Below are positions 16,080 through 57,645 of a DNA stretch of 64,000 bases, piece by piece. A program made the position numbers and the translations under genes. The DNA is from Pristiophorus japonicus (lineage: Eukaryota): assembly GCF_044704955.1 (NCBI RefSeq), contig NC_091981.1, positions 48,298,001 through 48,362,000 of the forward strand, written 5' to 3'. The notes beneath the pieces are model-generated. The model was not told the origin of the DNA. It ran no database searches and saw nothing but the letters and a program-made list of their open reading frames with translations. How positions within the stretch are numbered: position 1 is the first letter of the stretch; every line of letters starts with the position of its first letter.

Positions 16080-17584
16080 GGGGGGGGGGGGGTGGAATAA
16101 ATCTCTGGGGGGGCGGGGATTAGATCTCTGGGTGAGAGGACTAGATCTCTGGGGGTGGGGGGGACTTAGATCTCTAGGGGGGGCGACTTAGATCTCTGGG
16201 GGGGGACTTAGATCTCTGGGGGAGGGACTTAGATCTCTGCGGGGAGGGGGATTAGATTGCTGGGGGGGGGATTAGATCTCTGCGGGGGGGGAATTAGATC
16301 TCTGCGGGGGGGATTAGATCGCTGGGGGGGGATCAGATCTCTGCGGTGGGGGATCAGATCTCTGCGGTGGGGGATCAGATCTCTGCAGGGGGGATTAGAT
16401 CTCTGCGGGGGGGGGATTAGATCTCTGCGGGGGGGGAAATTAGATCTCTGCGGGGGGGATTAGATCGCTGGGGGGGGATCAGATCTCTGCGGGTGGGAAT
16501 TAGATCTCTGCGGTGGGGGATCAGATCAATGTCGTGGGGTTCAGATCTCTGCGGGGGGGGATTAGGTCTCTACGGGGGGGACTTAGATCTCTGCAGGGGG
16601 GGAATTAGATCTCGGGGGGGGACAGATCTCTGCGGGGGGGGATTAGATCGCTGGGGGGGGGATTAGATCTCTGTGGTGTGGGATTAGATCTATGCGGTGG
16701 GGGATTAGATCTCTGCGGGGGGGGGAATTAGATCTTTGCGGGGGGGGAATAGATCGCTGGGGGGGGGATCAGATCTCTGCGGTGGGGATCAGATCTCTGC
16801 GGGGGGGATTAGATCTCTGTGGTGTGGGATTAGATCTATGCGGTGGGGGATTAGATCTCTGCGGGGGGGGGGAATTAGATCTTTGCGGGGGGGGAATAGA
16901 TCGCTGGGGGGGGGATCAGATCTCTGCGGTGGGGATCAGATCTCTGCGGGGGGGATTAGATCTCTGTGGTGTGGGATTAGATCTCTGCGGTGGGGGATTA
17001 GATCTCTGCGGGGGGGGGATTAGATCTTTGCGGGGGGGGATTAGATCACTGGGGGGGGAATCAGATCTCTGCGGTGGGGGATCAGATCTCTGCGGGGGGA
17101 TTAGATCTCTGCGGGGGGGAATTAGATCTCTGCGGGGGGGATTAGATCGCTGGGGGGGGATTAGATCTCTGCGGTGGGGGATCAGATCTATGCGGCGGGG
17201 GATCAGATCTCTGCGGGGGGGGGATTAGATCTCTGCGGTGGGGGATCAGATCTCTGCGGGGGGGGGGTTAGGTCTCTACGGGGGGGGACTTAGATCTCTA
17301 CGGGGGGGGAATTAGATCTCTGCGGGGGGGAATTAGATCTCTGCGGGGGGGAAATTAGATCTCTGCGGGGGGGAATTAGATCTCTGCGGGGGGGGATTAG
17401 ATCTCTGTGGGGGGGGAATTAGATCTCGGGGGGAGTGGGGGGGGGAAGGGATTAGATCTCTGGGTGCAAGGATTAGGACTAGATCTCTGGGGGTGGGATT
17501 AGATCTCCAGGGGGGATTATATCTCTGGAGGGCGGGGGGGGGGGGGGTTGAAGGACTAGATTGCGGGGAGGGGGGGAGGACTAT
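16080..17584 (+). repeat. G-rich minisatellite, unit about 20 bp (GGGGGGATTAGATCTCTGC); continues at 24159-24420
   Basis: Dozens of directly visible tandem units with variable G-run length. Confidence 0.95.
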
Positions 17585-18289
17585 GGGCTAGACGTTCCAC
17601 TCTTTTTGCATCGATACCGCCCACTTAACGTCCATTTTAACGCTGAGATGAGGTATAACATCCAGATATCACCCATTTAGGCACAAAAATGGAAAATAAC
17701 GTCCATGTATCGATCACTTATCGCCCAACGTTACGTTCGGCATGTAACTAACGCCGAGAATCGCCCACTTTTTTTTTGTAGTAAAGATCAGAATTGCCGA
17801 ATCTAACGCCCAAAATATCGCCGAGCGTTACCTTCGGCACCTTGCACACATATCGCCGAAATGATTTATCGCCGAAAAAACCGCTGTGAAAAAGTTGCTC
17901 TCACCTGAACTAACCACAGTGGTATGGACGCCATTTTGTAAATCACAGGTCGATTCATTTAAAAGGCTGCTTCAACTTCTGGGGAGTTTTTTTAAGGTGA
18001 TTTGAACATCTGAACAAACATCTTATCATACTGTGGATGATTGGAATTTAGTTTAGGTGTCTTAGTGGGAAAAATTATTGTCTGTGAACAATAGGTATAA
18101 TACTGATAGGCCCCATTCCAATAACTGTCATTTCTCAGCCTGTCTTGATGACCACACACACATGCTGCAGCTAGAGATGGCAGAAGGTATATTCAACAGC
18201 ATTACGTGCCCAATCTAAGACATGCCAGACTGCTGAAGAGGATGAGACCTTACACCCCACGCACTTACAGGGAGAAGCGGTCTTACCTT

Positions 18290-18494
18290 CGCTGCCTCAG
18301 GGAGCTGTGGAAGCTGGTACATTGAATAAATTTAAGACAGAGATAGACAGTTTCTTAACCGATAAGGGAATAAGGGGCTATGGGGAGTGGGCAGGAAAGT
18401 GGACCTGAGTCCATGATCGGATCAACCAAGATCATATTAAATGGCGGAGCAGGCTCGAAGAGCCGTATGGCCTACTCCTGCTCCTATTTCTTAT
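18290..18494 (+). mobile_element. CR1 3'-end fragment; second shorter copy at ~21836-21965
   Basis: GCTGTGGAAGCTGG...AGGCTCGAAG...CCTACTCCTGCTCCTATTTCTTAT, the same tail as other CR1 copies in the window. Confidence 0.8.
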
Positions 18495-21421
18495 TGTTAT
18501 ATCTTTAATATTCTTATGAATGACGAGGTCTAGTATTGTACTTGAGCTGTTGTAACCTTAGTCCCATTTATTGTAACTCCAGAGTGAGGCACAAGCATGG
18601 TGGGCAGCCTTTTATACTGGGCCCTGCACACCTATTCAGGTCTCCCACCGCAGGGCCCTCTGGTGGCACACCTTATGTGACTATATAGTTAGTATACATG
18701 GTCTGCATACATGACATCACTTCCCCCTAAGTCCTTAATACAAATTGATTCGTACATTGACGTTAACCTGGGCTTTGTTCTTCCTGGTTGACCATTGGAG
18801 GGTCGCTTCTAGCTTGGGTGGGTTGGTAGTGAGATTTGTTGCTAGTGGAGGTCCCCGTGGTTTCTGGTTGTGAGTCCATGACTACTCCATTCTCCCCACC
18901 ACACAGAGATCATGCTAATAGCTCATTACATGCAAGTTGTATTCAAGTTCATCACATGGGTTTTACATTTACATCTTGGTTGCGGGTGACCCTTCGCTCT
19001 TGGGCATTGCCGTGGTGGCGATTGGGTTTGTGGGCTGCGCCTTTTCCACCCGGGTGGTGGGCAACGGTAGCCGACTGCGAGCATTGGCGCAGTTTACTGT
19101 TTCTGGCCCGTGGCAGTTCATGCCATCGGGTGCCTGCAATGTTAAACCGATTTGAGGCAGGGTATCGCTACCGGTGCCTCTACTCTCCGGGGATCATTTA
19201 CTCTGCGGCTTGTCTACTTCTGTCAGCTGTAGGGACACTTTATGATACATCGTTCTGGTCCCGGGGACGCAGACTACAGCATTGGGTAGCCTGCTGGACC
19301 TGTATACGACCGTTAGGTGTTCGCCCGCTACATTGGCTGATTGCAATTTGCACCCGACATCGCTCAACAACATATTGCTCGTTACAGCTGGACTTTTGCA
19401 TTGGTTACCAATTTCAAGCAGTTGGGTTGCTGGCCTCCTTTAAACTGGCCTTACTACTTTTACCCCAATCATCTTCCTTGAATGGAACCATATGTCGTTG
19501 CTCCATTAGCGCTGCACCTCGTGGTTTGGACGCCATCTTTTCCCTGTCCATGATGTTAACTGCCGCGATCTTCTTTTCCAGGGATTCCGCCATTGAAGCT
19601 GGGAAGGCACCCTCAGATCCAATCTTCCTCCCCAGGAGTCCTGCTACTGAAACCAGGAAGGTGCGTTCGGCCGGGTCATTGCCACGCAGTCGTGATGAGC
19701 GGTCTGTGCCTCAGGGGCTGCACAGATCTACTCTCCAGTGCTTGGTCCAACCGAAGGTGGGGGCTTGCTCTGCCTCTGTGCATGGGGAATGTCGATCGCT
19801 GGAGGGATGAAGTCTTCCCAGTTCCAATGAATCTTCCCCATCCATCTTCTTCCAAGTGGCGTTGGTCCATCACCTGAAACAATTCACAATGGTAAATTGT
19901 GCACCGCGCCATCATGGGATACACGTACATCCGCACTACCAACAACTGATATCAGTTCCTTGGTGCAGGTGCGCAGCTTTGCCTGAACCGGGACCAGCTT
20001 GGGTCGTTCAGCTTGATCGTTCCATAGCCTCTCAAAGGCTTCCTGGCTCATTACTGACTGACTCCCCCACCCCGTGTCCACTTCCATGAAGACTGGAACG
20101 CCATTTATTGCGACTTCCATTATCGCTGGAGGACAATCTGTGGTGCAGGTATATACTCCATACACTTCGTCCTGGGAGTGAGCTGCCTTTCTAGCCATCT
20201 CCTCATAATCTGCGCTGGATTCACAGGCATCTGCTGACTCCTCTTCCACGTGGTGAGTCACAGCTCTTTTGCACATTCGCTGGAGGTGGCCCTTTGTGCT
20301 GCAGCCTTTGCACACATAGTCTCTGAATCGACACTGATGAGCCCTGTGATTACCTCCGCAACGCCAGCATGGTGCTACTCGACTTACGTTTGCACCCCTC
20401 GGCGGACTCTGAATTAAAGTACTCGGGGGGGGGGGGGGGGCCTGTATGCTCTGCCCTGGGCAGATTCACGTTCAACAGTTCTGTCTGTGAAAGGGGCCAT
20501 TCTATTTACAATACTTGCCGGGTTTGAGCCCTGAGAGTGAGTGATCATCTGCTTGGAGCTGCAGCTTGAGGTCCTGAATGCCTGGCTGATGCTGATGGCC
20601 TTCTGCAGAGTGACGGTGGTTCGGCAGACAGTAGCCTGTGAAGAAGGGCCTCATGACCAATGCCAATTATGAAGACGTCCTGCAACGCATCGGCGAGGAA
20701 TGCGCCGAATTCATATGGTCCTGCCAGCCTCCTGAGGTCGGCAGCGTACTTTGCGATTTCCTGGCCCTCGGGGCGGCGGTGTGTATAAAATCGATGCCTG
20801 GCCGTGAAGATGCTCTCCTTCGGTTTGAGTTGGTCCTGAATGAGCACTTTCAGCTCCTCGTATGACTAGTTCGTTGTTTTCTGTGGTGCAAGCAAGTCCC
20901 TGACAAGGCAGTAGACTGCAGGCCCACAACTGGTCAACAGGATAGCTCTGCACTTATCTGCCAGTGTGACCGGATCATCGCCTACCAGGTCGTTTGCTAC
21001 AAAATATTGGTTGAGCTGCTCCGTAAAGGCTTCCCAATCTTCACCCTCTGAGAACTTTTCTAATGCACCAACATTTGTCATTTTTGTGTGAAAGTTCGTA
21101 ATCACGTCGCCAGCTGTTATGTCTTTAATACACTTATGAATGACTCCACGAGGTCCAGTATTGTACTTGAGCAGTTGTGACCTTAGTCCCATTTATTGTA
21201 ACTCCAGAGTGAGGCACAAGCATGGTGGGCAGCCTTTTATACTGGGCCCTGCACATCTATGCAGGTGACCTTCAGGTCTCCCACCACAGTGCCCTCCGGT
21301 GGCACACCTTATGTGACTATAAAATTAGTATACATGGTCTACAACTCTTTTTGGGGAGTACAAAATAACATTAGATCGAGTGCCCCCCAATCTGGGGGAT
21401 ACATGGTCTACATACATGACA
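18495..21421 (-). mobile_element. Internally deleted Gypsy LTR retrotransposon with both LTRs (18495-18716 and 21115-21421)
   Basis: Paired similar LTRs TGTTAT...ATGACA, PBS TGGCGACGTGAT next to the 5' LTR, PPT AGGGGGAAGTGA next to the 3' LTR. Gag (FTARHRFY, CKGCSTKGHLQRMC) and protease (MEVDTG) remnants. Confidence 0.9.
21344..21398 (-). mobile_element. 55-bp Tx1 3'-terminal fragment inside the Gypsy 5' LTR
   Basis: Minus strand TCCCCCAGATTGGGGGGCACTCGATC...AAAAAGAGT resembles the Tx1 array tails (GGGGGCACTTGATTT...AAAAGAGT). Flanked by ATACATGGTCTACA repeats (21330-21343, 21399-21412) and absent from the partner LTR. Confidence 0.78.
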
Positions 21422-21666
21422 AAGTTGCTCTCACCTGAACTAATCACAGTGGTATGGATGCCATTTTGTAAATCGCAGATCGCTTCATTTAAAAGGCTGC
21501 TTCAACTTCTGGGGAGTTTTGAGGAACTGTGGAGTTCTTTTCAGGTGATTTGAACATCTGAACAAACATCTTATCATACTGTGGATGATTGGAATTTAGT
21601 TTAGCTGTCTTAGTGGGAAAAATTATTGTTTGTGAACAATAGGTACAATACTGATAGTTATTGGAA

Positions 21667-22702
21667 TGGGGCCTGTCATTTCTCAGCATGTCTTGATGAC
21701 CACACACATGCTGTAGACTAGAGATGGCAGAAGATATATTCAACAGCATTATGTGCCCAGTCTAAGACGTGCCAGACTGCTGAGGAGGACGAGACCTTAC
21801 ACCCCACGTACTTACAGGGAGAAGCGGTCTTATCTTCCCTGCCTCAGAGAGCTGTGGAAGCTGGAACATTGAATAAATTTAAGACAGAGATAGACAGTTT
21901 CTTAACCGATAAGGGAATAAGAAGTTATGGGGAGTGGGCAAGAAAATGGATCTGAGTCCATGATCTTACCTGAACTTGTCCGATAACATGTGCCTTAGGA
22001 GGCTGCGCTTCCACAAGGAGGTTATCAGTGAGATATGCCAGCTCATCGGGGAGATGTGTAGCCTGCCAGTACCATCAGGACCGCACTGTTCATCGAGATC
22101 AAAGTCACCGTGGCACATTCGTTCTACGCATCAGGTTCCTTTCAGGCCTCAGCTGGTGACATTTGTGGTATATTTCAGCATGCCACACATTGCTGCATTC
22201 GACGGGTCACTGAAGCCCTTTATGCACGCAGGATGGATTTTATCAGCTTCCCTATGACCAGGGAGGCACAGACGGAGAGGGCTCTAGGATTCTACCAAAT
22301 TGCTAACTTCCCCAAGGTGCAGGGAGCAATAGATCGTACGCACAGCGCCATAGAGGCACCTTTTCAGGATGCAGAGGTTTTTCGGAACTGAAAGGGATTC
22401 CACTCCCTGAATGTGCAACTCGTTGTCGACCGCCAGCAAATTATTGTAGCAGTGAATGAAAAATTTCTGGGCAGCATCCATGATGCTCACATCCTGTGTG
22501 AGAGCACTGTATCTGACTTGTTTACCAGTCAGCCACAATGTCACTGCTGGATGCTTGGTGACAAAGGATATGGCCTCGCCACCTGGCTGATGACACCCCG
22601 CTGCGTAACACCCAGACGGAAGCCGAGAAGTGATACGCGAGCCACAGAGCCACACGCAATATCGTCGAGAAAACCATTGGAGTGTTTAAGCAGCGCTTTA
22701 GA
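21667..22702 (+). pseudogene. Harbinger (HARBI1-like) DDE transposase, disrupted and 3'-truncated
   Basis: Motifs FYASGSFQ, FPKVQGAIDRTH, FRN*KGFHSLNVQLV, HDAHIL, WMLGDKGY and LKQRF. Confidence 0.88.
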
Positions 22703-22945
22703 TTTTTTTTTTTTTTTTGAAATTCGTAGCCAATCGTTCCAATTCTTTGTCAAATCACAAACGCCAGAGGTCACCTTGGGCCCATTCAAGGATCACTCTG
22801 CGCCAATGCTCTTAGCCAAAAGGCCTAGAGCCACTGCACCGTTCCTGGAAGTACTGCAATACCAGGTTCGTGCCATGGAGGTGGATGGGTCAGGTCCCCC
22901 ACACACCTCCGTGGAGGTGGATGGGTCAAGCCACCCCACCCACAG
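22703..22945 (-). mobile_element. Poly(A)-tailed retroposed fragment containing U2 snRNA-derived segments
   Basis: Minus strand carries ACCTGGTATTGCAGTACTTCCAGGAACGGTGCA (U2 3' stem-loop IV), then GGCCTTTTGGCTAAGA (U2 5' stem), about 90 nt of unique tail, and A16. Confidence 0.75.
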
Positions 22946-22970
22946 AAGCGATGATGTATACTTTACTCAC

Positions 22971-23710: not shown

Positions 23711-24877
23711 TGTAAAAAAAAAATTTCCCCTCAAAACTCGGTGGGAACAACGTTATTTGTGCTCTGAATTCTTTTTGCTGCTGGAAAATCTCCCTCCTAC
23801 CTCCCAAAACAGCCAAACAAGCACACACCACACCCATACACGCTTTCAGTTCCTCTCTGCTCCCTCTTTCTCTCTCTCTCCTCTTCTGCGCATGTAATGA
23901 TGACCCCTGACCTCCTGAAAGACGGGAAGCGACCGTTGTCATGCCGTTGCTATGGATGCCGACACTTTATGGCAGAAGGTGAAAAATTTAACGCTACCAC
24001 CCATTTGAGATCATTCGCGGTAACGCCTATTTTATAAAATGGAAAGTTGGGGTTTTGAAAATGGCGATAATCCGGCAATCTCAAAACCCATATTTATTGC
24101 TACGCTGGAAATAACGCCCATTTTTGGCGAATCTGCACAAAAGTGGAAAGTCTAGCCCCAAATCTCTGTGGGGGGGAGGGGAGAGAAATCGATCGCCGGG
24201 GGGAGGAATAGATCGCTGGGGTGGGATTAGATCTCCTGGGGGGGGGATTAGATCTCTGTGGGGGGAGGATGAGATCTCTGGGGTGGGATTATATCGCATG
24301 GGGATTAGACATCCGGGGGGATTAGATCTCTGGGGGTGGGTGGGAGGTATAGATCACTGGAGGGGAGGACTATATCTCTGAGGGTGAGGGGAGAGAAATA
24401 GATCGCTGGGGGGAGGAACATTGTAGATTACATACTGCCGACATACCATCGGCATGAAATCACCTTTTTTCAGACGGTGTGCAGCTCAGGTGGTATGTCA
24501 GCGGTATACTACCAATGTCGGACTTTTGGGCGGTCTGTAGGGTGCTCCATGTGGGTGAACGGTATGCATACCGCCCGGTGGTATGTCACTGATGAATTTC
24601 CCGCCGGGCGGTATGTGAGCGGTATGTAGGTATTTTATGATCAATTTCGCGATTTTGGGCAGTATGTCGGCGGTTCGCGGGCGGTATGTCCACCAATTTC
24701 GGCCCTTAATGTTCATCAATTTTCCAGTATCCTTAAAAATACAGTACGATATAGTTGGTTATTCTCTAAAGCCAGTTCACCACAGCAAGGGGGATTATTT
24801 TTGTTAATTTTCTGAGATTTGATGGTGTATAAATTAGGCAAATCTGAAACTTGCAGTTGCTTTACAGTTATGTTTAA

Positions 24878-25085
24878 CAACAATTTGCATTTTTATAGCG
24901 CCTTTAACATAGGAAAATGTCCCAAGGCGCTTCAAAGGAACGTAATCAGACAAAAGTTGACACTGAGCTAAAGATAGCTGAGCTGAGATATTAGAAGGAC
25001 TAAAAGCATGGTCAGAGGTAGGTTTTAAGGAGGGTTTTAAAGGAGGAGAGAGATGTGGAGAGGTGGAGAGATTTAAGGAGGGAAG
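24878..25085 (-). mobile_element. L2-type LINE 3' fragment, split; resumes at ~31017-31135 and 32182-32370
   Basis: TTGCATTT.TATAGCGCCTTT tail. GGAGGGAA|TTCCAGAG junction rejoins, as seen uninterrupted at 63700-63730. Confidence 0.65.
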
Positions 25086-25112
25086 GATAGGCAGAGAGGA
25101 AAAGGAGGCGGG

Positions 25113-27320
25113 GTGGCATTGCTGGTTAAAGAGGAAATTAATGCAATAGTAAGGAGGGACATTAGCCTGGATGATGTGGAATCGGTATGGGTGGAGCTAC
25201 GGAATACCAAAGGGCAGAAAACGCTAGTGGGAGTTGTGTACAGACCACCAAACAGTAGTAGTGAGGTTGGGGACAGCATCAAACAAGAAATAAGGGATGT
25301 GTGCAATAAAGGTACAGCAGTTATCATGGGCGACTTTAATCTACATATTGATTGGGCTAACCAAACTGGTAGCAATGCGGTGGAGGAGGATTTCCTGGAG
25401 TGTATTAGGGATGGTTTTCTAGACCAATATGTTGAGGAACCAACTAGAGAGCTGGCCATCTTAGACTGGGTGATGTGTAATGAGAAGGGACTAATTAGCA
25501 ATCTTGTTGTGCAAGGCCCCTTGGGGAAGAGTGACCATAATATGGTAGAATTCTTTATTAAGATGGAGAGTGACACAGTTAATTCGGAAACTAGGGTCCT
25601 GAACTTAAGGAAAGGGAACTTCAATGGTATGAAGCGTGAATTGGCTAGAATAGACTGGCAAATGATACTTAAAGGGTTGATGGTGGATAAACAATGGCAA
25701 GCATTTAAAGATGACATGGATGAACTTCAGCAATTGTACATCCTTGTCTGGAATAAAAATAAAACGGGGAAGGTGGCTCAATCGTGGCTAACAAGGAAAA
25801 TTAAGGATAGTGTTAAAACCAAGGAAGAGGCATATAAATTGGCCAGAAAAAGCAGCAAACCTGAGGACTGGGAAAAATGTAGAATTCAACAGAGGAGGAC
25901 TAAGAGTTTAATTAAGAGGGGGAAAATAGAGTATGAGAGGGAGCTTGCAGGGAACATAAAAACTGACTGCAAAAGCTTGTATAAATATGTGAAGAGAAAA
26001 AGATTAGTGAAGACAAACATAGGTCCCTTGCAGTCGGATTCAGGTGAATTTATAATGGGAAACAAAGAAATGGCAGACCAATTGAACAAATACTTCAGTT
26101 CTGTCTTCACAAGGAAAGACACAGATGTACTAGGGGACAGTGGGTCTAGTGAGAAGGAGGAACTGAAGGATATCATTATTAGGCAGGAAATTGTGTTAGG
26201 GAAATTGATGGGATTGAAGGCCGATAAATCCCCGGGGTCTGATAGTCTGTATCCCAGAGTACTTAAGGAAGTGGCGCTAGAAATAGTGGATGCATTGGTG
26301 ATCATTCTCCAAAAGTCTATCAACTCGGGATCAGTTCCTATGGACTGGAGGGTAGCTAATGCAACACCACTTTTTAAAAAAGGAGGGAGAGAGAAAACAG
26401 GTAATTATAGACCGGTTAGCCTGACATCAGTAGTGGGGAAAATGTTGGAATCAATCATTAAGGATGAAATAGCAGCGCATTTGGAAAGCAGTGACAGGAT
26501 CGGACCAAGTCAGCATGGATTTATGAAAGGGAAATCATGTTTGACGAATCTTCTGGAATTTTTTGAGGATGTAACTAGCAGAGTGGACAAGGGAGAACCA
26601 GTGGATGTGGTGTATTTGGACTATCAAAAGGCTTTTGACAAGGTCCCGCATAAGAGATTAGTGTGCAAAATCAAAGCGCATGGTATTGGGGGTAATGTAC
26701 TAACGTGGATAGAGAATTGGTTGGCAGACAGGAAGCAAAGAGTCGGGATAAACGGGTCCTTTTCAGAATGGCAGGCAGTGACGAGTGGTGTGCCGCAGGG
26801 CTCAGTGCTGGGACCCCAGCTATTTACAATATACATTAACGATTTAGATGAAGGAATTGAGTGTAATATCTCCACGTTTGCAGATGACACTAAACTGGGT
26901 GGCGATGTGAGCTGTGAGGAGGATGCTAAGAGGCTGCAGGGTGACTTGGACAGGTTAGGTGAGTGGGCAAATGCATGGCAGATGCAGTGTAATGTAGATA
27001 AATGTGAGGTTATCCATTTTGGGGGCAAAAACACGAAGGCAGAATATTATCTGAATGGCGGCAGATTAGGAAAAGGGGAGGTGCAACGAGACCTGGGTGT
27101 CATGGTTCATCAGTCATTGAAAGTTGGCATACAGGTACAGCAGGCAGTGAAGAAGGAAAATGGTATATTGGCCTTCATAGCTAGGGGATTTGAGTATAGG
27201 AGCAGGGAGATCTTACTGCAGTTGTACAGGGCCTTAGTGAGGCCACACCTGGGATATTGTGTTCAGTTTTCGTCTCCTAATCTGAGGAAGGACATTCTTG
27301 CTATTGAGGGAGTGCAGTGA
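25113..27320 (+). pseudogene. CR1 ORF2 (APE endonuclease plus RT), N-terminally truncated with a premature stop
   Basis: VYRPP, MGDFN, SDHNMV, YRPVSLTS, AFDKVPH, GVPQGSVLGP and FADDTK motifs. Confidence 0.93.
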
Positions 27321-52287: not shown

Positions 52288-52432
52288 TGGAACAAACTGG
52301 GAGCTGGGGCTTCAGGAGCAGCCACCTGATAAAACCTGGCGCAGGGTTCAGTGTTGAAAGAAACAACCCTCACCACAACAGATTGAAGGCTTCGGCCACA
52401 ATACACATCGAAAGGAGGAATCTGCAACCCGG

Positions 52433-53762
52433 ATGGCGGCCAACCGAGCGGCGAACCAGGGCGTCTGAAACACCATCCGAGTGATGGTGAAGAAAGTGGA
52501 AGGCCAGTCAACCATCAATCGGGTGAAGAAAATCCTGCTTGGAACATGTGGCATGAAAGTCGCCGACATCTTTGCCTTGCAGGACCTCCCGAAGAGAGGT
52601 TACTTCGATGTCACCTTCAGAACCGTCGCCCTCTGCCTGAAGTTCCTCAAGGGTTTGAAGGAGGCGAGTGAACCGCTGCGCTCAGTGCTAACTTGGGCGC
52701 CACTGTTCACCCTCCCGTCGCAGAGAACGCACTATCACAGTGCAGATGTACAACCCCCACATCCCGGTCATTGATGTGCTGACTTTCCTCGCCAGGTATG
52801 TCGGGGCAGGAAACAGCAGCGACGTGAAAGACTTGCACGGGATATGGACCAGCAAGCGCCAGATCCAAGTCACCATGAAGGTGGACGCCAGCGGAACCAT
52901 CCTGCACCCCTCCTCCAGCTTTGCCATTGGAGGAAGTCGGGGATACATGGTGTACGCTGGCCAACCCAACGTGTGCCGGACCTGCGGGAAGGCAGGCCAT
53001 GTGGCGGCAAGCTGCAAAACTCTCATCTGCCGAAACTGCAAGAACGAAGGCCACCAGACAAAGGACTGTAAGGAGACCAAGTGCTGCAACCTCTGTGGTC
53101 TGGCTGGGCACCTTTACAAAAACTGCCCCAAGTGCAACTTCAGCTATGCGCAGGCAGCAAAGAACATTGCACCAGAGGAGGAGGAAGCTGAGGAACACAG
53201 CGCTCCAGAGGGGAGCTACACCCTCCCCCCGACCAACGCCCCCGGGGACTCGGAACAAGTCGGCGAGGAAGAGAAGCCTGCTACGCCGAGCTGCGAGACA
53301 CCAGCAACCAGCAGCGAAGCTCTCCCCCAGCACACCGAGTCCAGCAACGAGGAGACAGCAGACGATGAAGCGGGATGGGAGACCGTCAAGAAAAAGGCCC
53401 GCAAGCGTAAGGAGAACAGGCGAGCAAGGGCCCGTGCAGAAACGACAGGGAAGAGGCGGCTAGCAACCTCGACAGACAGCAGCGGCGGCAGCTCGTCTGA
53501 TGAGGAAAGGCGAGAAAAAGCCTCTCACCACCGACACCAAAACAAGAGGCAATACGCCAACCCACAGCCACAGACGACCGGGAGCAGTGAAGCGACCAGC
53601 ACGGCCCTGCTCCAGGAACCCGTGAGCAGCGAAGTGCCCAGCGCACCCCACCTCCAGAATACCGGGAGCAACGCAGCGATCGAAGCACACCAGCTTGAGA
53701 CCGCTGCGACTGAGGAAAAGAAGGAACCACCAACACCAGGCGAGACAATGCAGAGGATATAA
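52433..53762 (+). pseudogene. Tx1 ORF1, ZCCHC3-like, three CCHC zinc knuckles
   Basis: YFDVTF, QMYNP, GIWTSKR; CRTCGKAGHVAASC, CRNCKNEGHQTKDC, CNLCGLAGHLYKNC. One early stop and one frameshift. Confidence 0.85.
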
Positions 53763-53924
53763 TGGACTTAATTACAGAACTGCAGCAGTCCCCTGGTCGA
53801 AACACCCCCACAGCAGAGGACGTCGACCACGCCAGCCCAGGTGTAGTAGACTTTGATAGTAATACCTATGCATGCTGGAACTGGTGAAGCGAAATCTTTG
53901 TAACTGTAAAAAAATAGCTTTAAA

Positions 53925-56900
53925 ATGGATTTAAAAATAGCTACTATTAACGTGTGTACCGTAAAATCTACTATGCGATGTGTTTCCACCTTGGCGTGCC
54001 TCACCAAGGTCAAAGCAAACCTGCTGTTCTTGCAGGAGTGCGGTCTGCCGCACTTCAGCAGTTACCAGCAGTGGTCACGGTGGTGGGACCATGGACCATC
54101 CATATGGTCAGGAGGCAACGACTGCCGGGTTTCCGGCCTAGGCATTCTGCTGCGGGGAGGCCACTTCACTATCACCGAAGTTAAGGAGGTGGTGGGCGGC
54201 CGCCTCCTCGTAGCAGATGTAATTTACAAAAATTCCCCTCTAAGGCTAATTAACGTGTATGCCTCGCCTCTCAGAAGCGAGCGGCTGGCCCTCTTCCAGC
54301 AGCTCCCACTGCTGCTGGCGACGTCCAGGCCGGTCATTCTGGGCGATGACTTCAACTGCATTATCGATGCGGCTGGACGATCCAGCAGAGCCGACAGCAA
54401 ACTGGACGCCACTCCTGATGGATGCGGTAAAAGACGCCAAGGGATATGGAAGCACAACGTGAAACTGTTGACTCCGGAAAACGTGGAGGAACTCAAGAGG
54501 GATTACAAAGGTTGGAGAATCGTAAAACCCCTCTGCGATTTCCCCCATGCCCTGGTGGGAAACAATCAAGACAAACATCAAGAGGTTCTTCATCCTCAAA
54601 GGTGTTCAGGAGGCGAGAGGGAGACAGAGGGAATTGTCCCAACTCCAGAAGAGCATGCAAAACCTGCTCCTGTTGCAGTCGATGGGGGTCGATGTCGTGG
54701 AGGAACTCGAAGAGGTGAAGGGCCAGCAAGCCTCGCTCTTTGCCTCAGAGTCCTCCAAAATCACTTTCCGCTCCAGAGTCCGCTCCGTCGAGCAGGATGA
54801 GACGTGTTCGAGCTTCTTCTTCCAAAAGGTACACGGGGAGCTCTGTGATCACCAGCCTAAAGGAAGAAGACGGTTCTGTGATGTTTTCGCAGCCTGACAT
54901 GCTGAGGATCAGCAAATCCTTCTATGCCAGGCTGTATGACGTCAAACCCACAGACCGCGCGGCCTCCCAGTCGTTCCTGTCGTTGATCATGGAGGTCCTA
55001 AACGACAGTGAGCGGGAGAGTCTGGATCACCCTTTAACTCTGTTCGAGATGACAAAGGCCGTCCGGTCCCTTGCGACGAGTAAAACTCCCGGAAGCGACG
55101 GCTTACCGGTCGCGTTGTATTTGGCTCTGTGGGACTGGATGGGCCCAGACCTGCTGGAAGTGTACGAGGGCATGCTTCTGGCTGGCAGTATGTCAGAATC
55201 AATGAGGAAAGGCATCATCACCCTCATCTACAAGCAGAAGGGGGAGAGGGAGGAAATCAAAAACTGGTGGCCCATTTCGCTGCTCAATGTGGACTACAAG
55301 ATCCTGTCAAAGGTCATCGCCAACAGGGTTAAAAGTCTGCTCTTGAGCTGGTGATTCACCCGGACCAGACCTGCGCTGTCCCCGGCAAGAAGATTTCTGA
55401 TAGCCTGGCACTACTCAGGGATACGATCGCCTACGTGCGGGACAGTGGGGTGGACAACTGCTTAATCAGCTTAGACCAGGAGAAGGCCTTTGACAGGATA
55501 TCGCACACGTACCTGATGGACATGCTCTCCAAAATGGGGTTTGGGGAGGGTATCCGCAATTGGATCCAACTGCTCTACAGAGACATCTGTAGCGCAGTTC
55601 TAATCAACGGGTGGGAAACTGAAAGCTTTCCGATCAGATCTGGAGTCAGGCAAGGTTGTCCTCTCTCGTCTCTCTTGTTTGTGTGTTGTGTCGAGCCCTT
55701 TGCCGGGTCCGTCAGAAAGGATGCGGGCATTAGAGGGGTGACTATCCCAGGCAGCAGAGGCGCTCAGGTCAAGACCTCCCTGTACGTGGACGACGTGGCC
55801 ATCTTTTGCTCGATCCGCAGTCGGTCCGCAGATTGCTCACAATCTGCGACCAGTTTGAACTGGCCTCGGGAGCGAAGGTCAATCGCAGCAAAAGCGAGGC
55901 CATGTTCTTTGGCAACTGGGCCGACCGATCCTTTATTCCCTTCACCGTTAAGCCAGATTACCTGAAGTTGTTGGGAATATGGTTCGGAGCGGACGGGGCG
56001 TGCACCAAAAACTGGGAAGAGCGTATCGCCAAAGTGAAGCAAAAACTGAGATGGTGGAAGCTGCGCTTCCTCTCCATGGCAGGAAAGAACCTGGTCATCA
56101 GGAGTGAGGTGCTCTCGGGGTTGCTACACGTGGCACAGGTCTGGCCCATCTCTCGCTCCTGTGCCGCGGCAGTCACCCGGGCCGTCTTCCACTTTGTCTG
56201 GAGGTCCAAAATGGAACGTGTCCGCAGAGACACAATGTACAAATCTCTGGACAGTGGAGGAAAGGATGTTCTGGACGTGGCCCTCATCCTGATGGCCACC
56301 TTTGTGTGCGGCTGCATCAAGCTGTGCACAGACCCCCAGTACGCAAACACCAAGTGTCACTACGTGCTGAGGTTCTACCTGTCCCCGGTATTGCGAAGGA
56401 TAGGCCTGGCCATGCTGCCGTGAAACGGCCCCACCAGCTGGACCATGCCTGTCCACCTGTCCTTCGTGGAAAAGTTTTTCACAAAAAACCCCTTTGACCA
56501 CAAAGCCATAAAACAGTGGTCAGCACATAACGTCCTGGATGCCCTACGAAAGAAGGAGAGGATGGACCCTGTCGGGTGGTTCCCTGAGCGGACTGTCGAA
56601 CTCATTTGGCAGAACGTCTCATCGCCAGAGCTTTCACACAAGCACCAAGACGTAGCTTGGTTGGCGGTGAGGAGGGCCTTACCTGTCAGAGCGTTCATGC
56701 ACAGCCGACGTCTCAGCAACACGGCACGGCGCCCCCGAGTCGGCTGCGGGGCGGACGAGATTGTCACCCATCTCCTTCAGGATTGCGCCTTCGCAAGGCA
56801 GGTTTGGAAAGAGATGCAATGGTTGCTCCCAAGCAGCTCCGTAACACAAGACTCTGTGCTCTACGGGCTGTTCCCAGGAACACACACCGAGACAGACATC

Positions 56901-57101
56901 ACCTGCTGCTGGAGGACCATCAACTCGGTCAAAGACGCTGTTTGGTCTTGCCGAAACTTGCTGGTCTTCCAGAGCAAGGAGATGTCCACGTCTGCGTGTT
57001 GCAGACTGGCGCAATCCAAGATCCAGGATTACGTGCTGAGGGACGCACTTAAAATTGGTGCAGCCACTGCAAAGGCATGGTGGGGAAGGGCCACAGTTTA
57101 A
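53925..57101 (+). pseudogene. Tx1 ORF2 (APE endonuclease, RT, C-terminal Cys/His motif), frameshifted
   Basis: IATINV, LQEC, GDDFNC, PISLLNVDYKIL, DQEKAFDR, GVRQGCPLS and YVDD motifs. Confidence 0.9.
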
Positions 57102-57645
57102 AGCCCTTATGCCACGGTAAACCCGGGGGCAGGAATGAGTACAAAACTCCCCTCGGGCCGTACTTGTAACTTCTTTTTTGTGTACATGGAGCACCATGAT
57201 CTGCAAATACCTATGTAGTGCCATGTACAATGCAAGGTCTGTTTCGTGATGCACGTTGAAAAAAAAATGTAAATGTACCGTCACCCATTCCGTGTACTGT
57301 ATAGTGACACATGTAATGTAACTTATTGAATGTACTACAATGTATCCCGTATTGTACCGAATTGCACTTGAAATGAAAAGCAAGGAAATGTATCGAATGG
57401 AACTGCCGTCAGCACCCAAATGTAGTGTATGGGATTGCTGACCGCAGCTAAATGTACTGAACTGCTTTTGAATGTACTGTACAAATTTTTATATGAATAA
57501 AGTATATTTTGAAATTTAAAAAAAAGAAACAACCCTCACCTCAATAACCACCATCCACATTCGTATGCTTGATTCCCTGACCCCCACCCACATTCGTACC
57601 CTCAATTCCCTGACCCACTTCTACATTCATACCCTAATTTCAGAG

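What the first reader, a model, noticed from the sequence alone, without database searches (positions are those of the whole stretch)
22703..22945. Retroposed element with permuted U2 snRNA segments (3' stem-loop, then 5' stem) and poly(A)
Seen on the minus strand: two copies of TGACCCATCCACCTCCA (resembling U2 TTGCTCCGTCCACTCCACG), then ACCTGGTATTGCAGTACTTCCAGGAACGGTGCA (one mismatch to recalled human U2 stem-loop IV), 9 nt, GGCCTTTTGGCTAAGA (U2 nt 11-26), a ~90-nt unique tail and A16. Ordinary U2 pseudogenes are collinear and usually retain the 5' end. Known: snRNA-derived SINEU occurs in crocodilians, and Keno and Utopia target U2. Inference: the 3' end of an snRNA-derived SINE or of a LINE whose UTR captured U2 modules, perhaps to bind U2B''/U2A' or to pair with U6.
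Basis: partly seen in the sequence, partly recalled or inferred. Interest (0 to 1): 0.75.

Follow-up and report, generated by a model that had tools for sequence, protein, structure and literature searches.

The report
U2-headed SINE squatting in U2 genes
This is a truncated copy of a young jumping element built from pieces of the U2 and U1 splicing RNAs, present in hundreds of near-identical copies in what is likely a shark genome; sister copies sit exactly at the start of U2 genes, so it likely borrows the U2 promoter and likely moves with the U2-targeting retrotransposon Keno, which would answer an open question about how such elements are transcribed.

Summary
Observation confirmed. The 241 bp is the 3' two-thirds (nt 125-349) of a 349-nt SINE: U2 1-35, U1 3-52, U2 Sm region with a doubled stem-loop III, stem-loop IV, a second U2 5' piece, tail, poly(A). 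It has 697 exact copies of a subfamily marker and 8-23-nt target duplications. The 'permutation' is two stacked U2 heads.

Partner: Keno (Tx1). The two share the U2 nt 38/39 site, a relaxed RRY|AW target and mixed trains.

Key result: 17 of 290 U2-array starts run straight into a sister subfamily at +1, and 12 into Keno. Dispersed sister copies match the array copies up to 342/342. This points to U2-promoter transcription, which Kojima 2015 left open.

Against: the window's own subfamily has 0 copies at +1; the 11 array copies compared are only two haplotypes; no RNA data.

Nine paper searches showed SINEU only in crocodilians; Repbase/Dfam were not searchable. This scan earlier noted a U2-derived SINE in an arthropod. 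New variant of SINEU; interest 0.7.

The parts
22719..22943 (-). 5'-truncated SINEU-like copy, nt 125-349 of the 349-nt element ('family B, main subfamily')
   Evidence: 225/225 identical to full-length copy L010; family
22913..22943 (-). Remnant of first U2 stem-loop III-derived hairpin (13-bp stem in full-length copies; U2 nt 100-147 at 74%)
22876..22910 (-). Duplicated second stem-loop III-derived hairpin (absent in older single-hairpin copies)
22834..22872 (-). U2 stem-loop IV (U2 nt 153-186, 32/34), loop unvaried across copies
22807..22829 (-). Internal U2 5' piece (U2 nt 7-29, 21/23), remodelled stem-loop I; inferred older head
22719..22806 (-). Unique tail with a hairpin (22774-22791) whose loop varies between subfamilies; related to the family A tail
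22703..22718 (-). A16 tract; the last A is probably target-derived
   Evidence: intact host copies
22944..22952 (-). 9 nt equal to element/U2 nt 1-9 at the 5' junction; the first 5 overlap host sequence (one base differs in other host copies), so either an internal deletion/template jump or chance
21964..22702 (+). Host Harbinger-type DDE transposase remnant, interrupted at its 3' end by the insertion
   Evidence: Pfam DDE_Tnp_4 E 8e-14; 89% to intact copy L108
22951..24158 (-). Host Harbinger Myb/SANT gene remnant; 1.5-1.8 kb of the host element is missing at the insertion and there is no target duplication
   Evidence: Myb_DNA-bind_5 E 2.5e-4, just under cut-off; 3 of 3 intact copies
52380..57532 (+). 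Older 5'-truncated copy of the inferred partner LINE Keno, outside U2, with a target duplication of about 14 nt
   Evidence: 80-89% to Keno L054; junctions

Best explanation
It is a truncated copy of a young U2/U1-derived SINE family whose sister subfamily sits exactly at +1 of arrayed U2 genes, so the family is likely transcribed from the U2 promoter and likely copied into new sites by the Keno (Tx1) retrotransposon. Steps: (1) SHOWN: fixed mosaic structure, hundreds of copies, poly(A), target duplications. (2) SHOWN: SINE and Keno occupy the same U2 nt 38/39 site, the same relaxed RRY|AW sites and the same trains; INFERRED: Keno ORF2 does the target-primed reverse transcription. (3) SHOWN: in U2 arrays the element replaces the gene's 5' part, with no duplication, so that its nt 1 is U2 +1 behind an unaltered upstream region; INFERRED: the U2-identical first 28 nt drive a homology-based 5' junction, and these array copies are the Pol II source genes while dispersed copies are mostly dead ends. 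(4) SHOWN: the U2 branch-point region and the U1 5' arm are altered while hairpin stems are kept; INFERRED: selection for an RNA that looks like an snRNA without interfering in splicing.
For: Family: 697 exact marker copies; duplications of 8-23 nt in 47 of 89 loci. Keno: intact APE+RT ORF2 and CCHC ORF1 inserted in U2; 100%-identical endonucleases with open 1147-aa frames at many loci. Of 30 young Keno 3' ends, 9 are at U2 nt 39, 2 in a Keno head and 9 directly followed by this SINE, with the same duplication sandwiched between Keno and SINE in L152, L154, L155, L162. 13 of 14 pattern hits put window-type tails exactly at the Keno site of U2-like sequence. RRY|A in 24 of 38 sites against 17% background, p 2e-10. 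Promoter: 17 of 290 array-type U2 starts continue as SINE, 12 as Keno. 3 of 4 dispersed sister copies held are 98.5-100% identical to an array copy. 329 copies start exactly at nt 1, and the 100 listed share no 5' extension other than target sequence. Structure: z -5.3; shared substitutions in 5 of 93 paired and 15 of 56 unpaired columns, p 3.5e-4.
Against: The window's own subfamily head was found 0 times behind the last 8 nt of either U2 upstream type (one search is the positive control), and none of the 14 Keno-site copies lay behind a U2 upstream region. The 11 of 17 array copies compared are only two haplotypes, so they reflect one or two insertions spread by array turnover and could be a sink rather than a source. 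The array upstream region has no octamer within 260 nt and no clear match to the proximal element seen in 10 U1 genes, so 'promoter' rests on position before homogeneous, intact U2 genes. No tail similarity to Keno. Other Tx1/L1 families were not surveyed. The fourth dispersed sister copy is only 313/334.
Confidence: 0.68

Rival explanations
1. Keno-mobilised SINE, but transcribed by read-through from flanking promoters (host repeats, or Keno upstream in trains), as Kojima proposed for crocodilian SINEU; the array copies are only insertions.
For: The window's subfamily has no copy at U2 +1. Trains are common (12 of 30 head-selected copies have another SINE tail just upstream) and there is a hot spot in a Gypsy pol gene (8 of 30).
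Against: No shared 5' extensions in 100 listed copies that start at nt 1; 18 of 37 tail-selected copies start within nt 1-12; Keno itself sits at U2 +1 in the same way.
Confidence: 0.2
2. A true SINEU mobilised mainly by a different poly(A)-dependent LINE (another Tx1 or L1 family), with Keno only sharing sites.
For: No tail homology to Keno. Most insertions are outside U2. The 12,354 endonuclease candidates were scored only to the top 150, all 92-100% Keno.
Against: Exact use of the U2 nt 38/39 site, and alternating Keno/SINE trains with one shared duplication.
Confidence: 0.07
3. A pile of independent U2/U1 chimeric pseudogenes made by template switching.
For: Head swaps do occur (L226 has a fresh U2 1-47 joined to the 3' part).
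Against: One fixed mosaic with subfamily-diagnostic changes in 697 and 500 copies.
Confidence: 0.02
4. A functional variant snRNA gene in the U2 array whose retrocopies were scattered.
For: Strong, conserved fold and a position at U2 +1.
Against: It ends in an A tract at the Keno site and splits a U2 gene; its branch-point and 5'-splice-site arms are altered; the tail was listed in one organism only.
Confidence: 0.03

Closest known systems
SINEU-1/-2/-3 of crocodilians (Kojima 2015, PMC4494074; main text read, supplements not available)
   Same: Under 500 nt, U1/U2-derived head, recurrent addition of U1/U2 pieces, partial internal duplication, poly(A), internal oligo-T, tandem copies sandwiching a duplication, preference for sites in other transposons, Tx1-clade partner that has its own U2 head.
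   Different: Other lineage; built from this genome's own U2-array and U1 variants, so likely an independent origin. The partner is U2-targeting Keno, not Tx1-Mar. It inserts into U2 genes and sits at +1; the paper reports no such copies and leaves transcription open. It is younger: hundreds of 99-100% copies with an intact partner.
Keno (U2-targeting Tx1 LINE; PMC4640811 section 6 and passages, PMC4494074)
   Same: Same insertion site (downstream U2 starts at nt 39), APE-type endonuclease.
   Different: Here Keno is relaxed (19 of 30 young 3' ends are at neither a U2 nor a Keno-head site), carries a variant U2 head that replaces the host 5' end, and has a non-autonomous partner; I found no such partner in the papers searched.
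R2 and R2/R1 SIDEs (Eickbush & Eickbush 2012, PMC3414825; abstract only)
   Same: Non-autonomous, site-specific elements that live in a tandem RNA-gene array and rely on host-gene transcription.
   Different: SIDEs are internal deletions of the LINE, use rDNA co-transcription and a ribozyme. This element is made of snRNA pieces, would start at +1 without cleavage, and spreads genome-wide.

Membership tests
SINEU | 5' head derived from U1 or U2 snRNA | tested here: met
   U2 1-35 at 33/35 and U1 3-52 at 81% against this genome's genes; Rfam U2 above cut-off
SINEU | Short (<500 nt), non-coding, 3' poly(A) | tested here: met
   349 nt plus A tract
SINEU | Multi-copy family with shared structure, not independent retrocopies | tested here: met
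SINEU | Mobilised by a Tx1-clade LINE (shared target preference) | tested here: met
   Shared sites with Keno; genomic evidence only, no assay
SINEU | No internal Pol III promoter / Pol II transcription | tested here: inconclusive
   Internal T4-T6 runs seen; copies at U2 +1; transcription itself not observed
Crocodilian SINEU-1/2/3 (homology) | Sequence similarity of the non-snRNA 3' part to the crocodilian consensus | not testable with these tools
Host-type U2 and U1 variants argue for a separate origin
Keno (partner LINE L054) | Insertion at U2 nt 38/39 | tested here: met
Keno (partner LINE L054) | APE endonuclease + RT, Tx1 clade | tested here: met
   Pfam; nearest named full-length relatives 37-49% in amphibians and teleosts, one named 'transposon TX1'; no tree built
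U2 processed pseudogene | Collinear U2 copy without added modules | tested here: not met
   U1 segment, duplicated hairpin, second head and tail
SIDE (R2-type) | Internal deletion derivative of the partner LINE with its 3' end | tested here: not met
   Tail unrelated to Keno 3' UTR

The most novel reading that the evidence does not exclude
A promoterless Pol II SINE with a two-compartment life cycle. Its U2-identical 5' end lets Keno-driven insertions overwrite the start of a U2 gene, so it is reborn at +1 of a U2 promoter. Array turnover then amplifies or purges these source copies, so subfamilies replace one another, while relaxed targeting scatters dead-end copies. The RNA mimics an snRNP with its splice-site-reading arms disarmed, and the sharp truncation peak just 3' of the Sm-like site may be a footprint of bound protein.
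Probability: 0.5. Interest if true: 0.82.

Novelty: new variant of a known kind. Interest (0 to 1): 0.7.

Why it matters
Kojima 2015 names SINEU transcription as an open question, because U1/U2 promoters lie upstream of the RNA and are lost on retrotransposition. Here the genome shows a concrete solution, insertion at U2 +1, together with an intact and recently active partner. That makes the question directly testable by 5' RACE and by a two-plasmid retrotransposition assay. It also gives a second vertebrate lineage with a likely independent SINEU, a series of intermediates showing how one is built, hundreds of young insertion markers, and a natural case of a site-specific LINE carrying short cargo into U2 arrays.

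Tried and rejected
Rfam on the window copy: no U2 hit; the Prion_pknot hit (31 bits, cut-off 39) comes from the G-rich repeat and is rejected. An apparent T preference after the poly(A) in the first set (27 of 30) was a selection effect of the query; the tail-selected set gives 15 T, 14 C, 8 G. Tail against Keno 3' UTR: not significant. A hairpin in the Keno 5' UTR resembles the SINE's internal U2 piece, but 15 of 200 shuffles score as well, so it is not used. Search for a source copy of the window's subfamily: 0 hits behind two U2 upstream types; no U1/U2 upstream similarity in 30 + 14 flanks. The two array-type starts outside the arrays were an orphan U2 and a Keno-head chimera. Sequencing runs: no RNA holder listed. 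No read-level check of the array junction was obtained, so it rests on the assembly (17 copies on 4 contigs). The L028 printout is a script error (repeat of L023) and was ignored. Searches were coordinate or term slips.

Full report
OBSERVATION. The described segments are present at 22703-22943 on the minus strand. Against this genome's own U2 genes (fetched), the stem-loop IV piece is 32/34 and the 5' piece 21/23. A search of the 5.9-Gb own genome gave 896 candidates; the 40 scored were 99-100% identical. A 28-mer marking the window's subfamily occurs 697 times exactly. A shark-like vertebrate is my inference, from the repeat content (recalled) and from the highest-identity fragment hit of the partner LINE protein, 81% over 6% of the query, being a shark entry.

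ANATOMY. Full-length copies are 349 nt: U2 1-35; U1 3-52 (81%), folded with a linker into one long hairpin; U2 100-147 (Sm-like T run and stem-loop III remodelled to a 13-bp stem); a second copy of that hairpin; stem-loop IV; U2 7-29; an 88-nt tail; poly(A). The window copy is nt 125-349. It lies in a Harbinger element that has lost 1.5-1.8 kb at the site in comparison with 3 of 3 intact copies, with no duplication. Two of 100 listed full-length copies sit at the same Harbinger position. A simpler family A (1,175 candidates, 40 scored) is a nearly whole U2 followed by a second U2 5' piece and a related tail. Its most U2-like form includes 5 nt of the array's 3' flank. So the apparent permutation is a stack of heads: a short U2-5'-plus-tail unit, a whole U2 added in front, and then a U1 piece replacing the middle (order inferred from the alignment; no tree).

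RETROTRANSPOSITION. Target duplications of 8-23 nt flank 47 of 89 distinct loci; 44 were usable and 38 begin with A. Of these, 24 fit RRY|A (background 17%) and 37 have A/T at +2. Among 37 copies picked by the tail alone, 18 start within nt 1-12 and 19 are truncated, 11 of them at nt 118-126 (I re-read L107 as an internal deletion). That peak lies just 3' of the Sm-like run and at the 5' foot of the strongest hairpin. It is unexplained: a protein block, cDNA fold-back and RNA trimming all fit.

PARTNER. A full-length LINE with CCHC ORF1 and APE-RT ORF2 interrupts a U2 gene so that downstream U2 starts at nt 39, the Keno site as given in PMC4640811. It is young: many endonuclease copies are 100% identical within open 1147-aa frames. 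Of 30 best-matching Keno 3' ends, 9 are in U2, 2 in another Keno's head, 9 are followed within about 35 nt by this SINE, 1 by a Keno head and 9 by other DNA. Trains repeat one duplication between Keno and SINE units. Of 30 head-selected SINEs, 12 have another SINE just upstream (three share flanks and may be one duplicated locus) and 8 lie at one site in a Gypsy pol gene that Keno also hit. Window-type tails meet U2-like sequence at the exact Keno site in 13 of 14 pattern hits, all in dispersed family A copies or trains. The tail has no significant likeness to Keno, which fits poly(A)-type recognition. Other LINE families were not surveyed.

TRANSCRIPTION. In U2 arrays, a sister subfamily (91-92% to the window's) begins exactly at U2 +1 behind an unaltered upstream region, ends in poly(A) and is followed by U2 39-191; host nt 29-38 are gone and nothing is duplicated. 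Genome-wide, 290 array-type starts were counted: 17 continue as this SINE (4 contigs) and 12 as Keno with its variant head. In the C19 stretch 16 of 17 units are occupied; in C4309 3 of 57. The sister tail marker occurs 500 times. The 4 dispersed sister copies held match an array copy at 342/342, 335/337, 323/328 and 313/334. 329 copies of the main head start exactly at nt 1, and the 100 listed show no shared 5' extension beyond target sequences. I infer U2-promoter transcription from array copies. Against this: the window's subfamily has 0 such copies; 11 array copies compared fall into two haplotypes; the array upstream lacks an octamer within 260 nt and a clear proximal element, unlike 10 of 10 U1 genes, though a 3'-box-like and an SPH-like motif (both recalled) are visible; and transcription was not observed.

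RNA STRUCTURE. The element folds better than 100 of 100 shuffles (z -5.3). Over 101 distinct copies, substitutions shared by 3 or more copies fall in 5 of 93 paired and 15 of 56 unpaired columns of five hairpins (p 3.5e-4). Copies are related, so these are not independent events. The branch-point-pairing region of U2 is altered in the main and array subfamilies (kept in one minor subfamily), and the U1 5' arm is altered and predicted to be paired. Avoidance of splicing interference is inference.

PRIOR WORK. PMC4494074 (parts 1-4 of 5 read: all of the main text; supplements unavailable, and its alignments could bear on homology) defines SINEU, finds none outside crocodilians, assigns Tx1-Mar as partner and calls transcription an open question. 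PMC4640811: passages and section 6. PMC3414825: abstract. PMC5381603, PMC5786205, PMC4758252, PMC4370867: passages only. Searches listed no SINEU in cartilaginous fish and no SINE at U2 +1. The library lacks most subscription papers, including the original Keno paper, and Repbase/Dfam could not be searched, so a database entry may exist. Earlier scan notes report a U2-derived SINE in an arthropod and an SL-RNA-headed Tx1/SINE system in another genome; I did not test them. None exist for this genome or sequence.

VERDICT. A real, young SINEU-type family (about 0.97), mobilised by Keno (about 0.9), probably transcribed from U2-array copies (about 0.65-0.7 for the family, less certain for the window's subfamily). 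New variant of a known kind; interest 0.7.

Noticed in passing
window 52380-57532 (+): Older 5'-truncated Keno copy outside U2 with a target duplication of about 14 nt.
   Followed up: partly
L054, Keno 5' UTR, about 55 nt from its start: An octamer motif (recalled) lies just behind Keno's U2 head, while the U2 array upstream has none within 260 nt; Keno may bring its own enhancer.
   Followed up: no
G000:C19:69.62-69.73 Mb (L196-L206): A U2 array stretch in which 16 of 17 units are occupied by Keno or the SINE, against 3 of 57 in C4309.
   Followed up: partly
L167, L166, L072, L161 and others: A single antisense site in a Gypsy pol gene is a shared hot spot for SINE and Keno; why it is preferred is unexplained.
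   Followed up: partly
SINE nt 118-126: 11 of 19 truncated copies start in this 9-nt stretch.
   Followed up: partly
L056, L111-L115 (G000:C9:111 Mb): A second U2 type in 18-21-kb repeats, with Keno and family A copies nested at the Keno site.
   Followed up: partly
window 18438-21417 (-): An LTR element (gag, protease-like remnants, about 200-nt LTRs) splits the Harbinger; host sequence at 17979-18418 and 21527-21965 is duplicated.
   Followed up: no
window 16086-17590 and 24196-24390: 21-nt G-rich minisatellite, apparently at both ends of the Harbinger element.
   Followed up: no
window 25077-27320 (+): CR1-like endonuclease-RT frame of 747 aa; several other CR1-type fragments in the window.
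   Followed up: no
SINE stem-loop IV: The loop differs by 2 nt from the host array U2, so it may derive from a third U2 variant or have changed since.
   Followed up: no
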